Source of the DNA: the human T2T-CHM13v2.0 reference genome, Homo sapiens
Direction: 5' to 3' (one strand)
Length of the DNA stretch: 64,000 bases
Assembly (NCBI RefSeq): GCF_009914755.1
Contig: NC_060930.1
This document shows, piece after piece, positions 6,722-43,098 of the stretch. Numbering within the stretch: position 1 is the first letter of the stretch; each line of letters starts with the position of its first letter. The notes beneath the pieces are model-generated. The model saw only the letters and a program-made list of their open reading frames with translations, did not search any database and was not told where the DNA came from. The translations under genes were made by a program, and so were the position numbers.

Positions 6722-7010
6722 TTTTGGTTTTCTTTTCTTTTTTTTTTTGAGACAGGGTCTCACTCTGTCACCTAAGCCGGAGTGCAGTGGAACGATCTCA
6801 GCTCACTCACTGCAACCTCCACCTCCCAGCTCAAGCCATCCTCTTACCTCAACCTCCCAAGTAATTGGGATTACAGGCGCAGCCACCACGCCTGGCTTTT
6901 TTTAGTAGAGAGAGGGTCCATGTTGCCCAAGCTGACCTCTAACTCCTGGGCTCAGGTGATCCACCCACCTCAGCCTCCCGAAGTGCTGGGATTACACATT
7001 GCACCTGGCT
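6722..7010 (-). mobile_element. AluJ
   Basis: GAGACAGGGTCTCACTCTGTCACC...AACTCCTGGGCTCAGGTGATCC with J-type diagnostics. Confidence 0.9.
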
Positions 7011-7144: not shown

Positions 7145-8094
7145 TTTTCTTTCTTTTTTTTTTTTTTGTTGTTGTTGTTTGTTTGTTTTTTTGTGTGTGT
7201 GTTTTTGCCGGTCTGTTTTTAATCGTGGCAGCGCCTCACACACACATTCAGGGTTCAGATCTTGTTCAAAGCTGCGATGTCGACACTCTGCACATGCTCC
7301 TCAAACTTGGTGATCTCCTCCTCCAGCAAGTCTGTCCCCACTTTGTCGTCCTCCACCACACACTGAATCTGCATCTTCCGGATACCATAGCCCACGGACG
7401 CCAGCTTGGAGGCCCCGCTCACTAGCCCATCCAGCTGGATAGAGCGCACACATGCCTCCAGCTGGGTCATGTCCGTCTTATTGTCCCAAGGCTTGATGTC
7501 CAGCAGGATGGAGGACTTGGCCACCAGCGAGGGATTCTTGGCCTTCTTGGCGTACAGCCGCAGCCGCTCCTCCCGCAGCCGCCTTGCCTCCTTGTCTTCC
7601 TCCTTATTGTCGCTGCCAACAGATCAATGTCATCGTCCTCGTTATCCTCTGCTTCTTGGCCGGGGTCGTAGTAAGGGGGGCGAGGGGAGGGGCGCTCCAC
7701 TTGGCGCATGGGAGACACGTGCTGTGTCTGCGGGACTGTGGACCATGGCCAGGCGAGCTCTTCTCTCTTCTCCGGCATGTTCAGCCAGGCCTCCAGGTTG
7801 GAGACCGCCTGCTGCAGCTCCTGCACCACGCCGCGCAGGCTCTGGTTCTCCACTTCCAGGCTGGCGATCTGGAGGACGAGCTCGCTGTGGTCTTCCCTGG
7901 GGCCGAGCTCTGGCGGGAGGCGCTGGCCACAGGCCCATTCATCTGCTTGTAGAATTTCCTTTCTGTATCTTCATATTTGAATTTGTCGAGCCAGATCTTC
8001 TCATGTGCTAGGAATTTTGTAGCCATTTTTCTGACGCCTGCCAAGAATGCGGCTACCAGAAATGAGGAATCGGTAGACGCAGGACGCCTAAGGG
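7145..8094 (-). pseudogene. EEF1DP5: Processed pseudogene of EEF1D (elongation factor 1-delta); ATG at 8026, stop at 7255, several frameshifts
   Basis: Translations [18 protein letters not shown]..., [14 protein letters not shown]..., [13 protein letters not shown]...[12 protein letters not shown] match EEF1D; intronless; ATTAAA signal (~7218-7223 rc); A-tail ~7145-7200; TSD CGAAGTCATTCTTTC (7130-7144) / CGAAGTTGCTCTTTC (8095-8109). The symbol is inferred from remembered neighbouring gene order and is less certain than the pseudogene call. Confidence 0.95.
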
Positions 8095-36087: not shown

Positions 36088-36208
36088 TTTTTAAATGTTT
36101 TTAGAGATGAGGTCTCACTATGTTGCCTAGGGTGACCTTGAATTTCTGGGCTCAAGCAGTCTTCCCACCTCAGCCTCCCTAGGAGTTGGGACTACAGGCA
36201 TGTACCAC
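36088..36208 (-). mobile_element. Alu monomer (FLAM/AluJ)
   Basis: AGAGATGAGGTCTCACTATGTTGCCTAGG...GGGACTACAGGCATG. Confidence 0.8.
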
Positions 36209-36517
36209 ATTTTGCTTTTCCATTCATCCCACTGGTGAACACTTGAGTTACTTCTATGTTTTAGCTATTGTGAATAATGCTGTTGTAACATGGGTATATA
36301 AATATCTCTTCAAGATTCTGTTTTCAATTCTTTGGGGTGTATACCAAGAATTGGAACTTCTGGATCATATGATAATTGTATTTTTAATTTTTGAGGACTT
36401 GCCATACTGTTTTCCACAGTGGCTATAACATTTTGCATTCCAGCAACAGTGCAGAAGAGTTTCTATGTCTCCACATTCTTGTCAACATATTATTTTCTAT
36501 GTTTTTAAAAAAGTTTT

Positions 36518-36830
<313 letters not shown>

Positions 36831-38982
36831 TTATCTCATTGTAAGTTTTGGCTTGCATTTCCCTAATGATTAGTGATGCTGAGCACCTTTCATGTGCTTA
36901 TTGGCCATTTATATATCTTCTTTAGAGAAGTGTCTACTCATGTCTTTTGCCCACTTTTAAATCAAATTGTTCCTTTTTCATTGTTGAGTTTTAGGAGCTC
37001 TCTTTATATTAGTATCTTATCAGATATGTGATTTGCAAATATTTTATTCTGTAGGTTGCCTTTTTACTCTGTTGATATTGTCTTTAAAAATGTATATTAA
37101 AAATTCTAACCAGCTTAATATATTATTGACAAATAAAAGTTATATATATTTGTGGTATGCAACATGATATTTTGATGTATGCATACAGTATGAAATGATT
37201 AAATCATGTTAATTGACATATCCATTGCCTCACATAATTATTCACAAATTTTTTTCCTTTCCATAAAGTTTAATTTGTCTGTTTTTTTTCTTTTGTAGCC
37301 TGTGCCCTTAGAATCATATCCAAGAAATAATTGCCAAATCCAATGTCATAAAGCTTTTGCTGTATGTTTTTTCTTAAGAGTTTTATAGCTTCTTAAGGTT
37401 TTAAATGTAGTTCTTTGATCCATTTAAATAAATTTTTGTATATGGTGTTAGGCAAGGGTCCAACTTCATTATTTTGCATGTGGATATCCAGTTTTCCCAG
37501 CACCTGTTGTTGCAAAGACTCTTTTCCATATTGAATGGTCTTAGCTCTCTTGTGAAAATCATTTACCGTATATATGAGGGTTTATTTCTGAATTATCTAT
37601 TCTATTCCATTGGTCTATGTCTTCCATTGGTCTATATCTATGTTTGTGACTGTACTACACTGTTTTGATTACTGTAGCTTTGTGGTAAGTTTTAAACTCA
37701 GGAACTGTGACTCTTCCAGATTTGTTCCTTTTTCAAGATTGTTCTGGCTATTCAGGGAACTTTGATATTCCATATGAATTTTAGGATGAATTTTTCTATA
37801 AAGAGTATCATTAGGATTTTGATAGGATTGTATTGAATCTGTAGATCACTTTGGGTAGTATTGCTATCCTAAAAATGTTGTCTTCTACTCCATAAACATA
37901 GGATGAGTTTCTATTTTTTTATGCCTTTAATTTCTTCCAGCAATATTTTGTAGTTTTTCTTGTACATGTCTTTCATCTCCTTGGTTAATTCCTATGTATT
38001 TTATTTTTATTTGGAAATATTTATTAGGTGCCCACTTTGTTCCCCATATTATCCCAGGGAGTTATTACAAAATGATGAGCAAGACAGACATGGGCTCATG
38101 GGGCTTCCTCATGCATGTCTTTTGGTATCACCAATTTATCTCCTGTGGCCTGTGGCAAATGTATGGTGTAATTCTAGTCCATGAGCTTAGTATACTTATT
38201 TTCAGGTACTCACTCAGCTGTACTTGTTTAAAAAAATGCCTGAAACTTGATTTGCTTGTGTGGATATTAAGAGTAAATCAACTATTCCATACATGTAAAG
38301 TACGTTTTATTCTCCCTGTAAAACTCTCAATGTTTTTCTTCAAAATATACTTTATGATATATATATTAACTATTATTTTAAGATAGTTGGGAAAATGAAG
38401 GGACCATAATTTAAAAGAAATGGAATATTTGATACATGATGTGGCTGCCTGTTTTTATTCTTGTCACCTAGTCTCAGTTTTTCAGGTTTTTAAAAATATT
38501 ATAAATGCACACATGTACACACACTTAATTTCTTCTTAATCTGTGATCTTTCAGGTTTCTATTACATAGATTAATTCATGTAAATTTTCCTAGTCTTTTG
38601 AAATTAAAGAAAGTCAATGACAAAAGGACCATCACGTGGACAACCAGTGGGAATGTTTCATTCACTCTTGTAAGTTACTTGTTCCCAGTGCAAAAGTTTA
38701 AAAGAAAGTCTTTTTATTTATTCAAAAGTTGAAGGTTTTTTTTTTTTTTCTCTTCAGCACCGGAAACTGTCAGGAAAAGCAGTATATACCCCTAATGACT
38801 AGTTCAGAAATAAATGTATCATTGTTTTTAATAATTTGATACAGTATATAAATGTTGTTTTGTAAAGTTTAAATTCTACTATTAACTGAACAAAATATAA
38901 ACCAGGAAATTAACATCAAAGAAATAACCACATTCACCTGTTCCTCTCGTCTCTAACATTCTGCTTTTCCTTTGCTCCGCAG

Positions 38983-39027
38983 GGTAACCATGGTGAGAAA
39001 GATGTTGATGGCTTGGATGGAGAACAG
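38983..39027 (+). pseudogene. Orphan 45-bp collagen triple-helix (Gly-X-Y) exon, collagen VI alpha3/4/5/6-class; pseudo-exon
   Basis: Branch-like CTCTAAC, pyrimidine tract and CCGCAG acceptor; GGT AAC CAT GGT GAG AAA GAT GTT GAT GGC TTG GAT GGA GAA CAG = GNH GEK DVD GLD GEQ; donor GTACTA; phase 0, 5 triplets with one Gly>Asp. Confidence 0.7.
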
Positions 39028-39568
39028 GTACTAAAATTTCTCATTCTATGTTCCGCCTCTACTAGTTTGGCATTTACACATGTCATGATTAATCTAGAAA
39101 TGTAAACATGCATATTTAATGTTTAAAGTTTATCTATGTTTGTTCTTATCCCAAATATACAAGAACCCTAGAAGTCTAACTCGAATCAACCTCTCCCATA
39201 TTACATTTCTTTCCATCTTATTTTTGTTAAATCTATCACTTAGACATTGTTATTGTTTTATATAGTCAATGCTTATTTAGCCCTACCATCATATGTCTCC
39301 AATTTTCTGGAAGAGTTAGAGAAGGATTAGTATTCATTCTTTAAATGTTTGGTAGAATTCACTGAGGAAGCCATCAGGTCCATGGTTTTCTTCAAGAGAT
39401 TTTTTGATTATTGATTCAATCTTCTTACCATTGATTCAATCTTCTTACCAGTTGTAAGTCTATTCATATTTTCTATTTCTTCAGGATTTAGTTTTGCAGG
39501 TTTTGTGTTTCTGGAAATTTTTCCATTTTATAAAGACTACCTAGTTGTTGGCATACACTTGTTCTTAG

Positions 39569-39880
<312 letters not shown>

Positions 39881-40340
39881 TATTATAATTCTTTTTATTT
39901 ATGTGGACTCATTATTTCCACTTTCATTTTTGATTTTATTAATTTAAATTTTTCTCTTTTTTTTTTAGTTCATCTGGCTAAAATTTCATCACTTTTGCTA
40001 ATCTTGAGGAATCAATTTTTGGTTTTATTGATTTTCTCTATTATTTCTCTGTTCTCTATTTTATCTTTGCTCTAATCTTTATTTCCTTCTTTCTCCAAGT
40101 TTTGAGTTTAGTTCTTCTTTTTCTAGTTTCTTAAGGTATAAAGCGAAGTTGTTGATTTGAGACCTTTTTTGTTTTTTAACGATAAGTGTTTACAGCTATA
40201 GTTTTTTCCTTTAGCACCACTTTTGCTGTGTACCATAAGTTTTCGTGTGATGTAGTTTCATTTTTCATTTGTCTCTAATTATATTCTAATTTCTTTTGTG
40301 ATTTCTTTGATCCATTGGTTGTTGAAGACTGTGCTGTATG

Positions 40341-40447
40341 ATCCTTTTGTAGTTCACAAGCCTGATGATTGGGTTTTCATTCACGTGGATGAGATGCACC
40401 TCCCTCAAACCTGGTTGTTACAGCATAGGCACATTACTTGTCTAACA
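40341..40447 (+). pseudogene. U13 snoRNA (SNORD13) retro-pseudogene
   Basis: ATCCTTTTGTAGTTCA...TGATGATTGGG...GGCACATTAC matches U13; A-rich tail to ~40463; TSD ~GA(C/G)TGTGCTGT. Confidence 0.9.
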
Positions 40448-40612
40448 CGAAAAAAAGGAAAAAGGAGTGTGCTGTGCAATTTCCACAAATTTGTGAAGTT
40501 TCTAATTTTACTTGTGTTACTGAGTTCTAATTTCATCCTGTTGTGATCAGAGAAGACAATTTGCATAATATTTATCTTTTATAATCCATCGAGAATTGGT
40601 GACTTAATATAT

Positions 40613-41150
40613 TGTGTCTGGAGTTGGTTCCTCCTGGTGGGTTTGTGGTCTCCCTGACTTCAAGAATGGAGCTGCGGACCTTAGCAGTGAGTGATACAGC
40701 TCTTAAAGATGGCACGGACCCAAAGAGTGAGCAGCAGTAATATTTATTGTGAAGAGCAAAATAACAAACATTCCCCAGCACGGAAGGGGACCTGAGCGGG
40801 TTGCCGCTGCTGGCTGGGGTGCCCAGCTTTTATTCCCTTATTTGTCCCCACCCATATCCTGCTGATTGGTCCATTTTACAGAGTGCTGATTGGTTCACTT
40901 TACAGAGCACTGATTGGTCCATTTTACAGTGTGCTGATTGGTTTTACAAAACTCTAGCTACAGAGCGCTGATTGGTGTGTTTTTACAGAGCATTGATAGG
41001 TGCATTTTACAAACCTCTAGCTAGCTACAGAGTGCTGATTGGTACATTTTTACAGAGCACTGATTGGTGCATTTTACAAACCCCTTGTAAGACAGAAAAG
41101 TCCTCCAAGTCCCCATTCGACCCAGGAAGTCCAGCTGGCTTCACCTCTCA
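40613..41150 (-). mobile_element. LTR12-family (ERV9) solo LTR
   Basis: TGTGTCTGGAGTTGGTTCC...CCAGCTGGCTTCACCTCTCA; tandem GCTGATTGGT/CATTTTACA units; 4-bp TSD ATAT. Confidence 0.92.
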
Positions 41151-41615
41151 ATATGATATATCTTGATAAATATTCCATGTGTACTTGAGAAGAATGTGTA
41201 TGCTGTTGATGTTGAGTAATGCTCTGTATGTGTCTGCTAGATCTAGTTGGTTTGTGTTGTGTTCTATTTCCTTTCTTATCATCTGTCTGATTGGTGTCTT
41301 CATTATTGAGAGGGGAGTACTGAAATCTTTAACTATTATTGTAGAACTATATTTCTCCCTTCATTTCTGTCAGCTTTTGCCTCATATATTTTGATGGTCA
41401 GTTATTAGATGCATGAATGTTTATAGTTTTTATATCTTCTTTCTGTATTGAACATTTTAATTTATAATGTCCTTCTTTATGTCTTTTTCACTTTTTGGAT
41501 TTAAAGTGTATTTTCCCTGATATTGGTATAGCCACTGCTGCTCTCTTTTGGTTACTATTTGCATGGAATAGCTTATTTCTTTTTTTCTTTCTTTTTTTTT
41601 TTTTAAATAAACACA

Positions 41616-41913
41616 TTTTTTTTTTTTTTTTTTGAGAGACAGTCTCCCTCTTGTCCAGTCTGGAATGCTGTGGTGCAATCTCAGCTCACCGCAACCTCTG
41701 CCTCCTGGGTTCAAGCAATTCTTATGCCTCAGTCTCCAGAGAAGCTGGGACTACAAGTGCACACCACCACCCCCGGCTAATGTTTTGTATTTTAGTAGAG
41801 ACAGGGTTTTATCATGTTGCCCAGGCTGATCTTGAACTCCTGACCTCAGGCAATCTGCCCACCTTGGCCTCCCAAAGTGCTGGGATTATAGGTGTGAGCC
41901 ACTGCACCCAGCC
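41616..41913 (-). mobile_element. AluS
   Basis: Reverse Alu with T tail. Confidence 0.92.
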
Positions 41914-41939
41914 AGAATAGCTTTTTCTATCATTCCATC

Positions 41940-42299
<360 letters not shown>

Positions 42300-43098
42300 T
42301 AGACAGCATTTAGTTGGATCATGTATTTTTAAATCTATTCTGCCAGTATGTATCTTTCAATTGGAGAGTTTACTCCACATTTATTTAAAGTAATTACTGA
42401 TAAGGAGGACTTACTTCTGCCAGTTTGCTATTTGTTTTCTATATGCCTTATACTTTATTATCCCTCAGTTCCTGCATTACTGTCATCTTTTGTGTTTAGT
42501 TGATTTTTTGTAGGGAAGTGTTTAAATTTATTTCTCATTTCCTTGTATATAGTCTGTAGTTATTTTCTTTATGGTTGTCATGAGGATTACATTTAACATC
42601 TTAAAGTAATAACACTGTAATTTAAATTTAAACCAGCTTAACTTTAATACTATACAAAAAGTTTACTCTGTTATAGCTTCATCCCCACTTATTTCAGTGG
42701 CTGATGTCATAAAATTACAGCTTTATATATTATGCACCCCAAAACATAAACTAATAATTCTTTTAAATACATTAGCCTTTTAAATTATATAGAAAATGAA
42801 ATGTGAAGTTACCAACCAAAGTTACAATATTAGGTTTTTGAGTAATAATTCTTTAAATGTATTTTTCTCTTAAATCATGTAGAAAATAAAAAGTGGAGTT
42901 ATAAACCATTATTACAATAATACTTGATTTTATGATTGCACATGTATTTACCTTTGCTGAGATAGTTATTTTTTCATATGTCTTTGAATTACTGTCCAGT
43001 GTCTTTTCATTTCATGCTACAGGCTTCCCTTGAGCATTTCTTTCAGGGCAGCTCTAGTGGTAATGAACTCCCTCAGTTTTTTTATTTGGGAATATCTC

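What the first reader, a model, noticed from the sequence alone, without database searches (positions are those of the whole stretch)
38940..39035. Orphan collagen VI-like 45-bp exon with intact splice signals in intergenic DNA
Seen: branch-like CTCTAAC, long pyrimidine tract, CAG acceptor, exactly 45 nt starting with a Gly codon and reading GNH-GEK-DVD-GLD-GEQ, then a GT donor. Knowledge: collagen helix exons are phase 0 multiples of 9 bp starting with Gly; as I recall, the alpha3/alpha6(VI) chains have a similar segment (GEVGEIGLDGLDGED / GEVGENGIDGLNGEQ). Inference: a displaced copy of a collagen VI exon, most plausibly from COL6A4, which in humans is a split pseudogene on chr3. The Gly>Asp change (GAT for GGT) fits neutral decay. 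I found no other collagen exon in the window.
Basis: partly seen in the sequence, partly recalled or inferred. Interest (0 to 1): 0.85.

Follow-up and report, generated by a model that had tools for sequence, protein, structure and literature searches.

The report
Stray COL6A4 exon copy in L1
A 1.3-kb piece of the collagen VI alpha-4 gene, one 45-base exon with its flanking intron, was copied long ago from chromosome 3 into an old L1 repeat on chromosome 6, where it appears to be an unused, decaying relic.

Summary
Window 38983-39027 is a 45-nt, phase-0, Gly-first open frame (GNHGEKDVDGLDGEQ) between CAG and GTACTA.

It is not a chance match. Window about 38010-39297, which is the exon plus about 970 bp upstream and about 270 bp downstream, has one other copy in the genome. 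That copy is chr3:132958365-132959694 inside COL6A4P2 (E 2e-224; 984 of 1259 aligned bases identical; K2P 0.26). There it lies in order among other Gly-X-Y exons.

The same 45-nt exon exists in COL6A3, COL6A5 and COL6A6. All of these have Gly where the chr6 copy has Asp. The human COL6A4P2 copy has lost one codon (42 nt).

On chr6 the piece sits inside an old L1, antisense to it, and replaces about 0.8 kb of the ORF2 region. It has no poly(A) tail or target-site duplication.

The best reading is an ancient interchromosomal copy of unspliced COL6A4 sequence, most likely a break-repair patch, now decaying neutrally. Nothing is annotated on it.

The parts
38010..39297 (+). COL6A4-derived segment of about 1.29 kb: about 970 bp of intron, the 45-nt exon, and about 270 bp of intron. 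Its ends are good to roughly +/-8 bp.
   Evidence: the only other genomic match is chr3:132958365-132959694 (+) in COL6A4P2 (74% identity, E 2e-224; 2 candidates, 2 scored); pairwise alignment gives 984 of 1259 identical, K2P 0.263; junction alignments.
38951..38982 (+). Branch-like CTCTAAC (38951-38957), pyrimidine-rich tract, and CAG acceptor (38980-38982).
   Evidence: The COL6A4P2 copy has CTCTAAG, a similar tract and a CAG acceptor.
38983..39027 (+). 45-nt exon relic encoding GNHGEKDVDGLDGEQ. Asp (GAT, 39001-39003) stands at a Gly position.
   Evidence: the homologous 45-nt exons of COL6A3, COL6A5 and COL6A6, and the 42-nt COL6A4P2 copy, all have Gly there; 37 of 42 aligned bases are identical to the chr3 copy, plus a 3-nt indel.
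39028..39033 (+). Donor-like GTACTA.
   Evidence: The chr3 copy has GTGCAG.
36200..38009 (-). Host L1, 3'-ward part (L1 sense is the window's minus strand). An Alu-like insert lies at about 36518-36801.
   Evidence: collinear with other L1 copies up to window 38002-38011; other L1 copies read straight through this point.
39298..42440 (-). Host L1, 5'-ward part. It resumes about 760-820 bp further along the L1. It carries an Alu (39584-39882), a U13 copy (40341-40466) and further repeats.
   Evidence: the minus strand of the collinear copy L004 (1449-1733) matches human L1 ORF2 protein residues 421-508, E 5.9e-28. Alu/SRP-like and U13 matches.

Best explanation
This is a fragment of an unprocessed pseudogene. 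About 1.29 kb of unspliced COL6A4 sequence, one 45-nt triple-helix exon with its flanking intron, was copied from the then-intact COL6A4 gene on the ancestral chromosome 3. The copy landed in the interior of an L1 element between PTPRK and LAMA2 on chromosome 6.

Shown: the paralogy, the direction of copying (chr3 holds the exon in its native series of exons, chr6 holds it inside an L1), the replacement of about 0.8 kb of L1 ORF2 sequence, and the absence of a poly(A) tail or target-site duplication.

Inferred: the piece was used as a patch to repair a chromosome break in the L1, the 'class 2 templated sequence insertion' kind of event. It was templated either by DNA or by a reverse-transcribed unspliced transcript. 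This happened roughly 60-130 million years ago, and the copy has drifted neutrally since then. It now carries Gly>Asp at a Gly position.

The copy has no collagen exon neighbours and no annotated transcript, so it most likely does nothing.

The confidence given (0.85) is for identity, origin and lack of function. For the break-patch mechanism alone I would put about 0.55.
For: Paralogy. Window 38015-39292 has exactly one other match in the genome, chr3:132958365-132959694 (+), E 2e-224. This lies within COL6A4P2, chr3:132956497-133017797 (+). The alignment has 984 of 1259 identical bases and K2P 0.263, spread across intron and exon.

Native context on chr3. The exon lies between Gly-X-Y exons at 132956518-571 and 132961946-999, within a series of such exons on the same strand.

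Family identity. A 33-place degenerate pattern found 4 sites genome-wide: COL6A3, COL6A5, COL6A6 and this site. The reversed-pattern control found 2. All three gene copies are 45 nt with AG/GT.

Inside an L1. The flanks at 37284-38011 and 39298-40340 are collinear parts of one L1 in 3 independent copies (L004, L007, L008), with 760-820 bp missing between them. Other L1 copies run through both junctions. L1 sense is the window's minus strand.

Junctions. No A-run or T-run tail and no duplicated target were seen at the junctions.

Age. K2P is 0.26 between the two copies, and 0.24-0.31 between the host L1 and its sibling copies.

Decay on both sides. chr6 has Asp at a Gly position. chr3 has lost a codon and has His where COL6A3, COL6A5 and chr6 have Asp.

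Annotation. Between window 30000 and 48000 only masked repeats and the U13 snoRNA are annotated.

The class of break-repair patches copied from distant loci, without TSD or poly(A), is described in PMC5110952 (abstract and sections 8 and 9 read).
Against: The mechanism is inferred from the anatomy only.

- Microhomology at the junctions cannot be judged after this much divergence.
- The piece is about as old as the host L1 itself, so an accident during L1 integration is not excluded.
- No other mammalian genome could be searched here. The age therefore rests on substitution rates I recalled, not on presence or absence in other species.
- No RNA data could be consulted, so use of the exon by some unannotated transcript is not excluded.
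- The exon is more similar between the copies (37 of 42) than the introns (about 78%). This is expected if only the chr3 copy was constrained, but 42 bases give no power to show it.
- Matches in closed regions of the reference are not shown, so 'only two copies' holds for the open part.
Confidence: 0.85

Rival explanations
1. The rearrangement arose during integration of the L1 itself. While the L1 was being copied into chr6, the polymerase left the L1 template, copied about 1.3 kb of COL6A4 sequence, and returned to the L1 about 0.8 kb further on.
For: The COL6A4 piece (K2P 0.26) is as old as the host L1 judged against its sibling copies (K2P 0.24-0.31). The two L1 parts are collinear and in the same orientation.
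Against: It needs two template switches. The COL6A4 piece is antisense to the L1. A simple switch from L1 RNA to COL6A4 pre-mRNA during first-strand synthesis would give the opposite orientation (my inference). Equal ages within error do not show simultaneity.
Confidence: 0.2
2. It is the remnant of a larger segmental duplication of COL6A4 onto chr6, most of which has since been lost or overwritten by repeats.
For: Duplicated sequence that includes intron is what segmental duplications leave (general knowledge).
Against: Both ends of the piece abut parts of one and the same L1. The right-hand L1 part begins at an internal ORF2 position, not at an L1 3' end, so two separate later L1 insertions do not explain the layout (plus inference). 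No other collinear non-repeat match was found between the window and the 80 kb around COL6A4P2 or the 60 kb around COL6A4P1. No other Gly-X-Y exon is in the window.
Confidence: 0.05
3. L1-mediated transduction or a retro-copy: the exon was carried by an L1 transcript or was reverse-transcribed and inserted by L1 machinery.
For: It is adjacent to L1 sequence on both sides. A U13 retro-copy with an A-tail and a short direct repeat sits in the same L1, so L1 machinery did act in this stretch.
Against: The piece is internal to the L1, antisense to it, and replaces L1 sequence instead of following its 3' end. It has no poly(A) tail and no target-site duplication, and it keeps intron on both sides. 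The chr3 source is flanked by native intron, not by that L1. The L1 3.6 kb upstream on chr3 is an unrelated copy that reads through the junction point.
Confidence: 0.03
4. A chance Gly-periodic open frame, or a relic of a different, lost collagen gene native to the PTPRK-LAMA2 interval.
For: Motif-only hits are expected somewhere in a 3-Gb genome (my arithmetic).
Against: Homology extends over 1.28 kb including introns, to COL6A4P2 alone (E 2e-224). Intron similarity of 78% cannot date from an ancient gene-family split (inference). The piece is embedded in an L1.
Confidence: 0.01

Closest known systems
COL6A4P2 (3q22.1), the 3' half of the split human COL6A4 pseudogene: its exon at chr3:132959349-132959390
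   Same: The exon is homologous, and so are about 970 bp of upstream and about 270 bp of downstream intron (78% identity, same strand). The AG acceptor, the GT donor and a similar branch-like motif and pyrimidine tract are shared.
   Different: The chr3 copy sits in the gene's exon series and is 42 nt, one codon short, encoding GNPGEGVDGLHGEQ. The chr6 copy keeps 45 nt but has Asp at a Gly position. It stands alone inside an L1.
The homologous 45-nt triple-helix exons of COL6A3, COL6A5 and COL6A6
   Same: All are 45 nt, phase 0 and Gly-first, with AG/GT borders and the shared motif G-x-x-G-[ED]-x-G-[LIV]-D-G-L-[DN]-G-E-x.
   Different: Those are uninterrupted Gly-X-Y exons in working genes. 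Their introns show no detected similarity to the chr6 piece: they were not among the matches.
Class 2 templated sequence insertions (break-repair patches copied from distant loci; PMC5110952)
   Same: The template is on another chromosome and is intronic/unspliced. There is no target-site duplication and no poly(A). Target sequence was lost at the site (paper sections 8 and 9).
   Different: The published cases are recent human polymorphisms, and the paper speaks of microdeletion. Here about 0.8 kb was lost, the event is tens of millions of years old, and I did not test whether it is polymorphic. Microhomology could not be assessed.
Processed pseudogenes and L1 3' transductions
   Same: Gene-derived sequence displaced to another chromosome and lying next to L1 sequence.
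   Different: It keeps its introns, has no poly(A) or TSD, and is internal and antisense to the L1.

Membership tests
Collagen VI alpha3-like chain, 45-nt triple-helix exon (COL6A3/4/5/6) | 45 nt, phase 0, first codon Gly, bordered by AG and GT | tested here: met
   the same layout as the COL6A3, COL6A5 and COL6A6 exons.
Collagen VI alpha3-like chain, 45-nt triple-helix exon (COL6A3/4/5/6) | Uninterrupted Gly-X-Y (Gly at every third residue) | tested here: not met
   Residue 7 is Asp (GAT). COL6A3, COL6A5, COL6A6 and COL6A4P2 have Gly there.
Collagen VI alpha3-like chain, 45-nt triple-helix exon (COL6A3/4/5/6) | Homology by descent to a collagen VI gene, flanking intron included | tested here: met
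   1.28 kb at 78% identity to COL6A4P2, and to nothing else.
Collagen VI alpha3-like chain, 45-nt triple-helix exon (COL6A3/4/5/6) | Part of a gene: neighbouring collagen and VWA exons, and a transcript | tested here: not met
   No other Gly-X-Y exon in the window. No annotated transcript. The flanks are L1. RNA data were not available.
Unprocessed (duplicated) pseudogene fragment | A copy of genomic gene sequence that retains intron, cannot encode the protein, and has an identifiable parent | tested here: met
Processed pseudogene / retro-copy | Introns removed, 3' poly(A), target-site duplication | tested here: not met
   Intron is present on both sides. No A-tail or duplicated target at the junctions.
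L1 3' transduction | Transduced sequence follows the L1 3' end in the same sense and ends in poly(A). The source locus has that L1 immediately upstream. | tested here: not met
   The piece is internal and antisense to the L1. The chr3 L1 lies 3.6 kb away and is an unrelated copy.
Class 2 templated sequence insertion (break-repair patch) | Insert templated from a distant locus, with no TSD, no poly(A) signal or tail | tested here: met
   Definition from PMC5110952 section 9.
Class 2 templated sequence insertion (break-repair patch) | End-joining marks at the junctions: deletion, microhomology, non-templated bases | tested here: inconclusive
   Loss of 760-820 bp of target is clear. Microhomology and filler cannot be read at this divergence.
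Class 2 templated sequence insertion (break-repair patch) | RNA-derived template | not testable with these tools
   The insert is unspliced and lies within introns at both ends. DNA and pre-mRNA templates give the same product.

The most novel reading that the evidence does not exclude
The piece is a fixed, roughly eutherian-age break-repair patch copied between chromosomes. It would be far older than the polymorphic human cases described. It would also serve as a dated 'fossil' of COL6A4 from before the ape inversion. It shows that the alpha4 exon was 45 nt with Asp at residue 12 when copied, so the codon loss and the His in COL6A4P2 came later. A bolder variant is that its retained AG/GT signals let it be spliced into an unannotated transcript of the PTPRK-LAMA2 gene desert.
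Probability: 0.4. Interest if true: 0.3.

Novelty: new member of a known kind. Interest (0 to 1): 0.2.

Why it matters
It matters little for biology. It is one more gene fragment stranded in a repeat, with no sign of use. It has three modest values.

- It shows that a reader working from sequence alone can correctly recognise a single collagen exon and name its parent gene.
- It offers an old, cleanly bounded example of an interchromosomal copy-and-paste into a broken L1, useful for cataloguing ancient templated insertions.
- It acts as an internal outgroup for COL6A4. Comparison with COL6A3, COL6A5 and COL6A6 shows that the human COL6A4P2 exon lost a codon after the copy was made.

It is not annotated in RefSeq for this window. 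Three literature searches gave no report of it. 'COL6A4P3' returned 0 papers. COL6A4 with PTPRK and LAMA2 returned 2 papers, unrelated by title and abstract. COL6A4P1/COL6A4P2 returned 33 papers, of which 15 were listed and none was on this by title.

Tried and rejected
Chance match: rejected.

Lost native collagen gene between PTPRK and LAMA2: considered from the gene map. Rejected because the homology includes introns, points only to COL6A4P2, and the piece lies inside an L1.

Shared L1 breakpoint on chr3: BLAST ends suggested that an L1 3.6 kb upstream of the chr3 copy stopped at the same L1 position as the chr6 flank. A multiple alignment showed that the chr3 L1 reads straight on, so it is an unrelated copy.

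Peptide search of the genome with the 15-aa translation: found only itself.

Searches with the chr3 flanks for further displaced pieces: only repeat hits, uninformative.

Pfam on 5 open L1 frames: no family, apart from two weak matches on 1 of the 5 frames, both below the curated cut-off. The L1 strand was instead settled by a match to solved L1 ORF2 protein structures. The same search with a frame from the window itself found nothing.

Mouse or other mammalian alpha4(VI) protein: not obtained. The protein word search only sees proteins of 0.55-1.75 times the query length, and no stop-free long query exists, so I ran no such search. The three human paralogues served as outgroups instead.

The original descriptions of COL6A4 (Fitzgerald 2008, Gara 2008, Wagener 2009) were seen only as entries in a reference list. 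They are not held. The statements on the inversion come from passages of PMC9513866 and PMC11919215. Supplements were not requested. None bears on a claim here.

Substitution rates used for dating, the splice consensus, and the extent of the ORF2 reverse-transcriptase domain are recalled, not from calls.
Full report
**What is there.**
- CTCTAAC lies at 38951-38957.
- A pyrimidine-rich tract follows (18 of 22 bases C or T).
- The CAG acceptor is at 38980-38982.
- A 45-nt open frame at 38983-39027 encodes GNHGEKDVDGLDGEQ.
- It is followed by GTACTA.

A six-frame scan for Gly-X-Y runs gave 3 hits in the window, and only this one has AG and GT borders. In 200 dinucleotide-preserving shuffles, 0 produced a 45-nt frame of this kind with AG/GT. 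The stretch 38028-39577 is not repeat-masked, and nothing but repeats and a U13 snoRNA is annotated between 30000 and 48000. The window lies in the 362-kb gap between PTPRK and LAMA2.

**Homology.** A search of the whole reference with window 38028-39577 gave, besides itself, one long match. This was chr3:132958382-132959694 (+), 73% identity, E 3e-219, over query 5-1265. The other 39 matches were confined to query 1264-1550, which is L1. Repeating the search with 38015-39292 alone gave 2 candidates, both scored: itself and chr3:132958365-132959694 (74%, E 2e-224).

That place is inside COL6A4P2, chr3:132956497-133017797 (+). A global alignment has 984 of 1259 ungapped positions identical (78%), K2P 0.263, and 29 small indels. 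Identity is 739 of 952 in the upstream intron and 208 of 265 in the downstream intron. In the exon it is 37 of 42, plus one 3-nt gap. Per-100-bp identity ranges from 65% to 85% with no outstanding block.

**Which copy is native.** On chr3 the exon (132959349-132959390) lies 2777 bp after a Gly-X-Y exon at 132956518-571 and 2555 bp before another at 132961946-999. It is part of a run of such exons on the + strand. On chr6 there is no other collagen exon. I saw no other non-repeat match between the window and 80 kb around COL6A4P2 or 60 kb around COL6A4P1.

Humans and apes carry COL6A4 as two pseudogenes split by a pericentric inversion of chromosome 3 (passages of PMC9513866 and PMC11919215). 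The copy is far too diverged to postdate that inversion. This is my inference from K2P 0.26.

**The exon family.** A 33-place degenerate pattern derived from the exon found 4 sites in the genome at up to 1 mismatch. They are in COL6A3 (chr2:237850239-271, minus), COL6A5 (chr3:133150116-148), COL6A6 (chr3:133336889-921) and this site. The reversed-pattern control gave 2.

| Copy | Length | Peptide |
|---|---|---|
| COL6A3 | 45 nt | GEVGEIGLDGLDGED |
| COL6A5 | 45 nt | GGHGDDGIDGLDGEE |
| COL6A6 | 45 nt | GEVGENGIDGLNGEQ |
| chr6 (this site) | 45 nt | GNHGEKDVDGLDGEQ |
| COL6A4P2 | 42 nt | GNPGEGVDGLHGEQ |

The three gene copies have AG/GT borders.

The 45-nt length is therefore ancestral. The chr6 copy has changed a Gly to Asp. 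The chr3 pseudogene copy has lost a codon and has His where COL6A3, COL6A5 and chr6 have Asp. Both copies carry changes that a working collagen helix would not be expected to tolerate (inference).

**The setting on chr6.** The two flanks, about 37284-38011 and 39298-40340, are collinear, same-orientation parts of one L1 in three independent copies fetched from elsewhere (L004, L007, L008). Between them 760-820 bp of L1 are missing:
- L007: 698 to 1501.
- L008: 722 to 1501.
- L004: 455 to 1501, less a 282-bp insert private to L004.
- The long L1 elsewhere in the window: 18602 to 17783.

Other L1 copies read straight through both junction points. The host L1 runs from about 36200 to 42440 and also carries Alus and a U13 copy.

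The minus strand of L004:1449-1733, which is collinear with window 39302-39594, matches human L1 ORF2 protein residues 421-508 (E 5.9e-28). The L1 therefore reads on the window's minus strand, and the collagen exon is antisense to it. By arithmetic, the lost part is roughly ORF2 codons 500-765. At the junctions there is no A-run or T-run beyond what the L1 itself has there, and no duplicated target.

**How it most likely arose.** Shown: a copy of unspliced COL6A4 sequence replaced about 0.8 kb inside an existing L1. Inferred: a chromosome break in the L1 was repaired with a patch templated from COL6A4, either from DNA or from a reverse-transcribed unspliced transcript. This is the pattern described for class 2 templated sequence insertions: no duplication, no poly(A), and end-joining marks (PMC5110952, abstract and sections 8 and 9).

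The rivals fare as follows.
- Integration-time accident: not excluded, because the piece (K2P 0.26) is as old as the host L1 judged against its siblings (0.24-0.31). It needs two template switches, and the orientation does not fit the simplest version.
- Larger segmental duplication: fits poorly with both ends abutting one L1.
- L1 transduction or retro-copy: fits poorly with retained introns.
- Chance: excluded by the 1.28-kb homology.

**Age.** K2P 0.26-0.27 means about 0.13 per lineage. With recalled neutral rates of 1-2.2e-9 per site per year, that gives roughly 60-130 million years. No other mammalian genome was available to test this.

**Function.** Nothing suggests any function. There are no neighbouring exons, no annotation, a Gly>Asp change in the helix motif, and a donor without the consensus +5 G. 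RNA evidence could not be consulted.

**Verdict.** The thing itself is an ordinary, neutral gene fragment: a new, unannotated member of a known kind. It is of minor use as an old example of an interchromosomal patch and as an outgroup for the decay of COL6A4P2.

Noticed in passing
window 40341-40476: The annotated U13 snoRNA (Rfam RF01210, 83 bits, full length 1-104) is followed by an A-rich tail (40451-40466). It is bracketed by a short direct repeat, TGTGCTGT, at 40331-40338 and 40469-40476. The host L1 resumes at about 40465. It looks like an L1-mediated retro-copy of U13 inserted into the same old L1, not a native snoRNA gene.
   Followed up: partly
L018:9349-9390 (chr3:132959349-132959390, COL6A4P2): The human COL6A4P2 copy of this exon is 42 nt, one codon short of the 45 nt seen in COL6A3, COL6A5, COL6A6 and the chr6 copy. 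It breaks the Gly-X-Y register (GNPGEGVDGLHGEQ). Whether the loss came before or after the ape inversion could not be tested.
   Followed up: partly
chr3:132727061-132747345 (-), outside the window (gene table): RefSeq lists a pseudogene, LOC124906284 'collagen alpha-1(III) chain-like', 210 kb upstream of COL6A4P2. It lies amid OR7E, ALG1L2 and FAM86HP duplicates. It might be another collagen fragment linked to the rearranged region.
   Followed up: no
window 7513-7557 (+) and 6911-6946 (-): These are the two other Gly-periodic open frames found by the scan ([15 protein letters not shown] and GVRGQLGQHGPS). Neither has AG/GT borders. The first lies within the span of EEF1DP5 but on the opposite strand. 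I take both as chance.
   Followed up: partly
window 36200-42440: One old L1 (sense on the minus strand) has been hit at least four times. It carries an Alu-like insert at about 36518-36801, the COL6A4 piece at 38010-39297, an Alu at 39584-39882 and the U13 copy at 40341-40466. More masked repeats lie at 40781-42311.
   Followed up: partly
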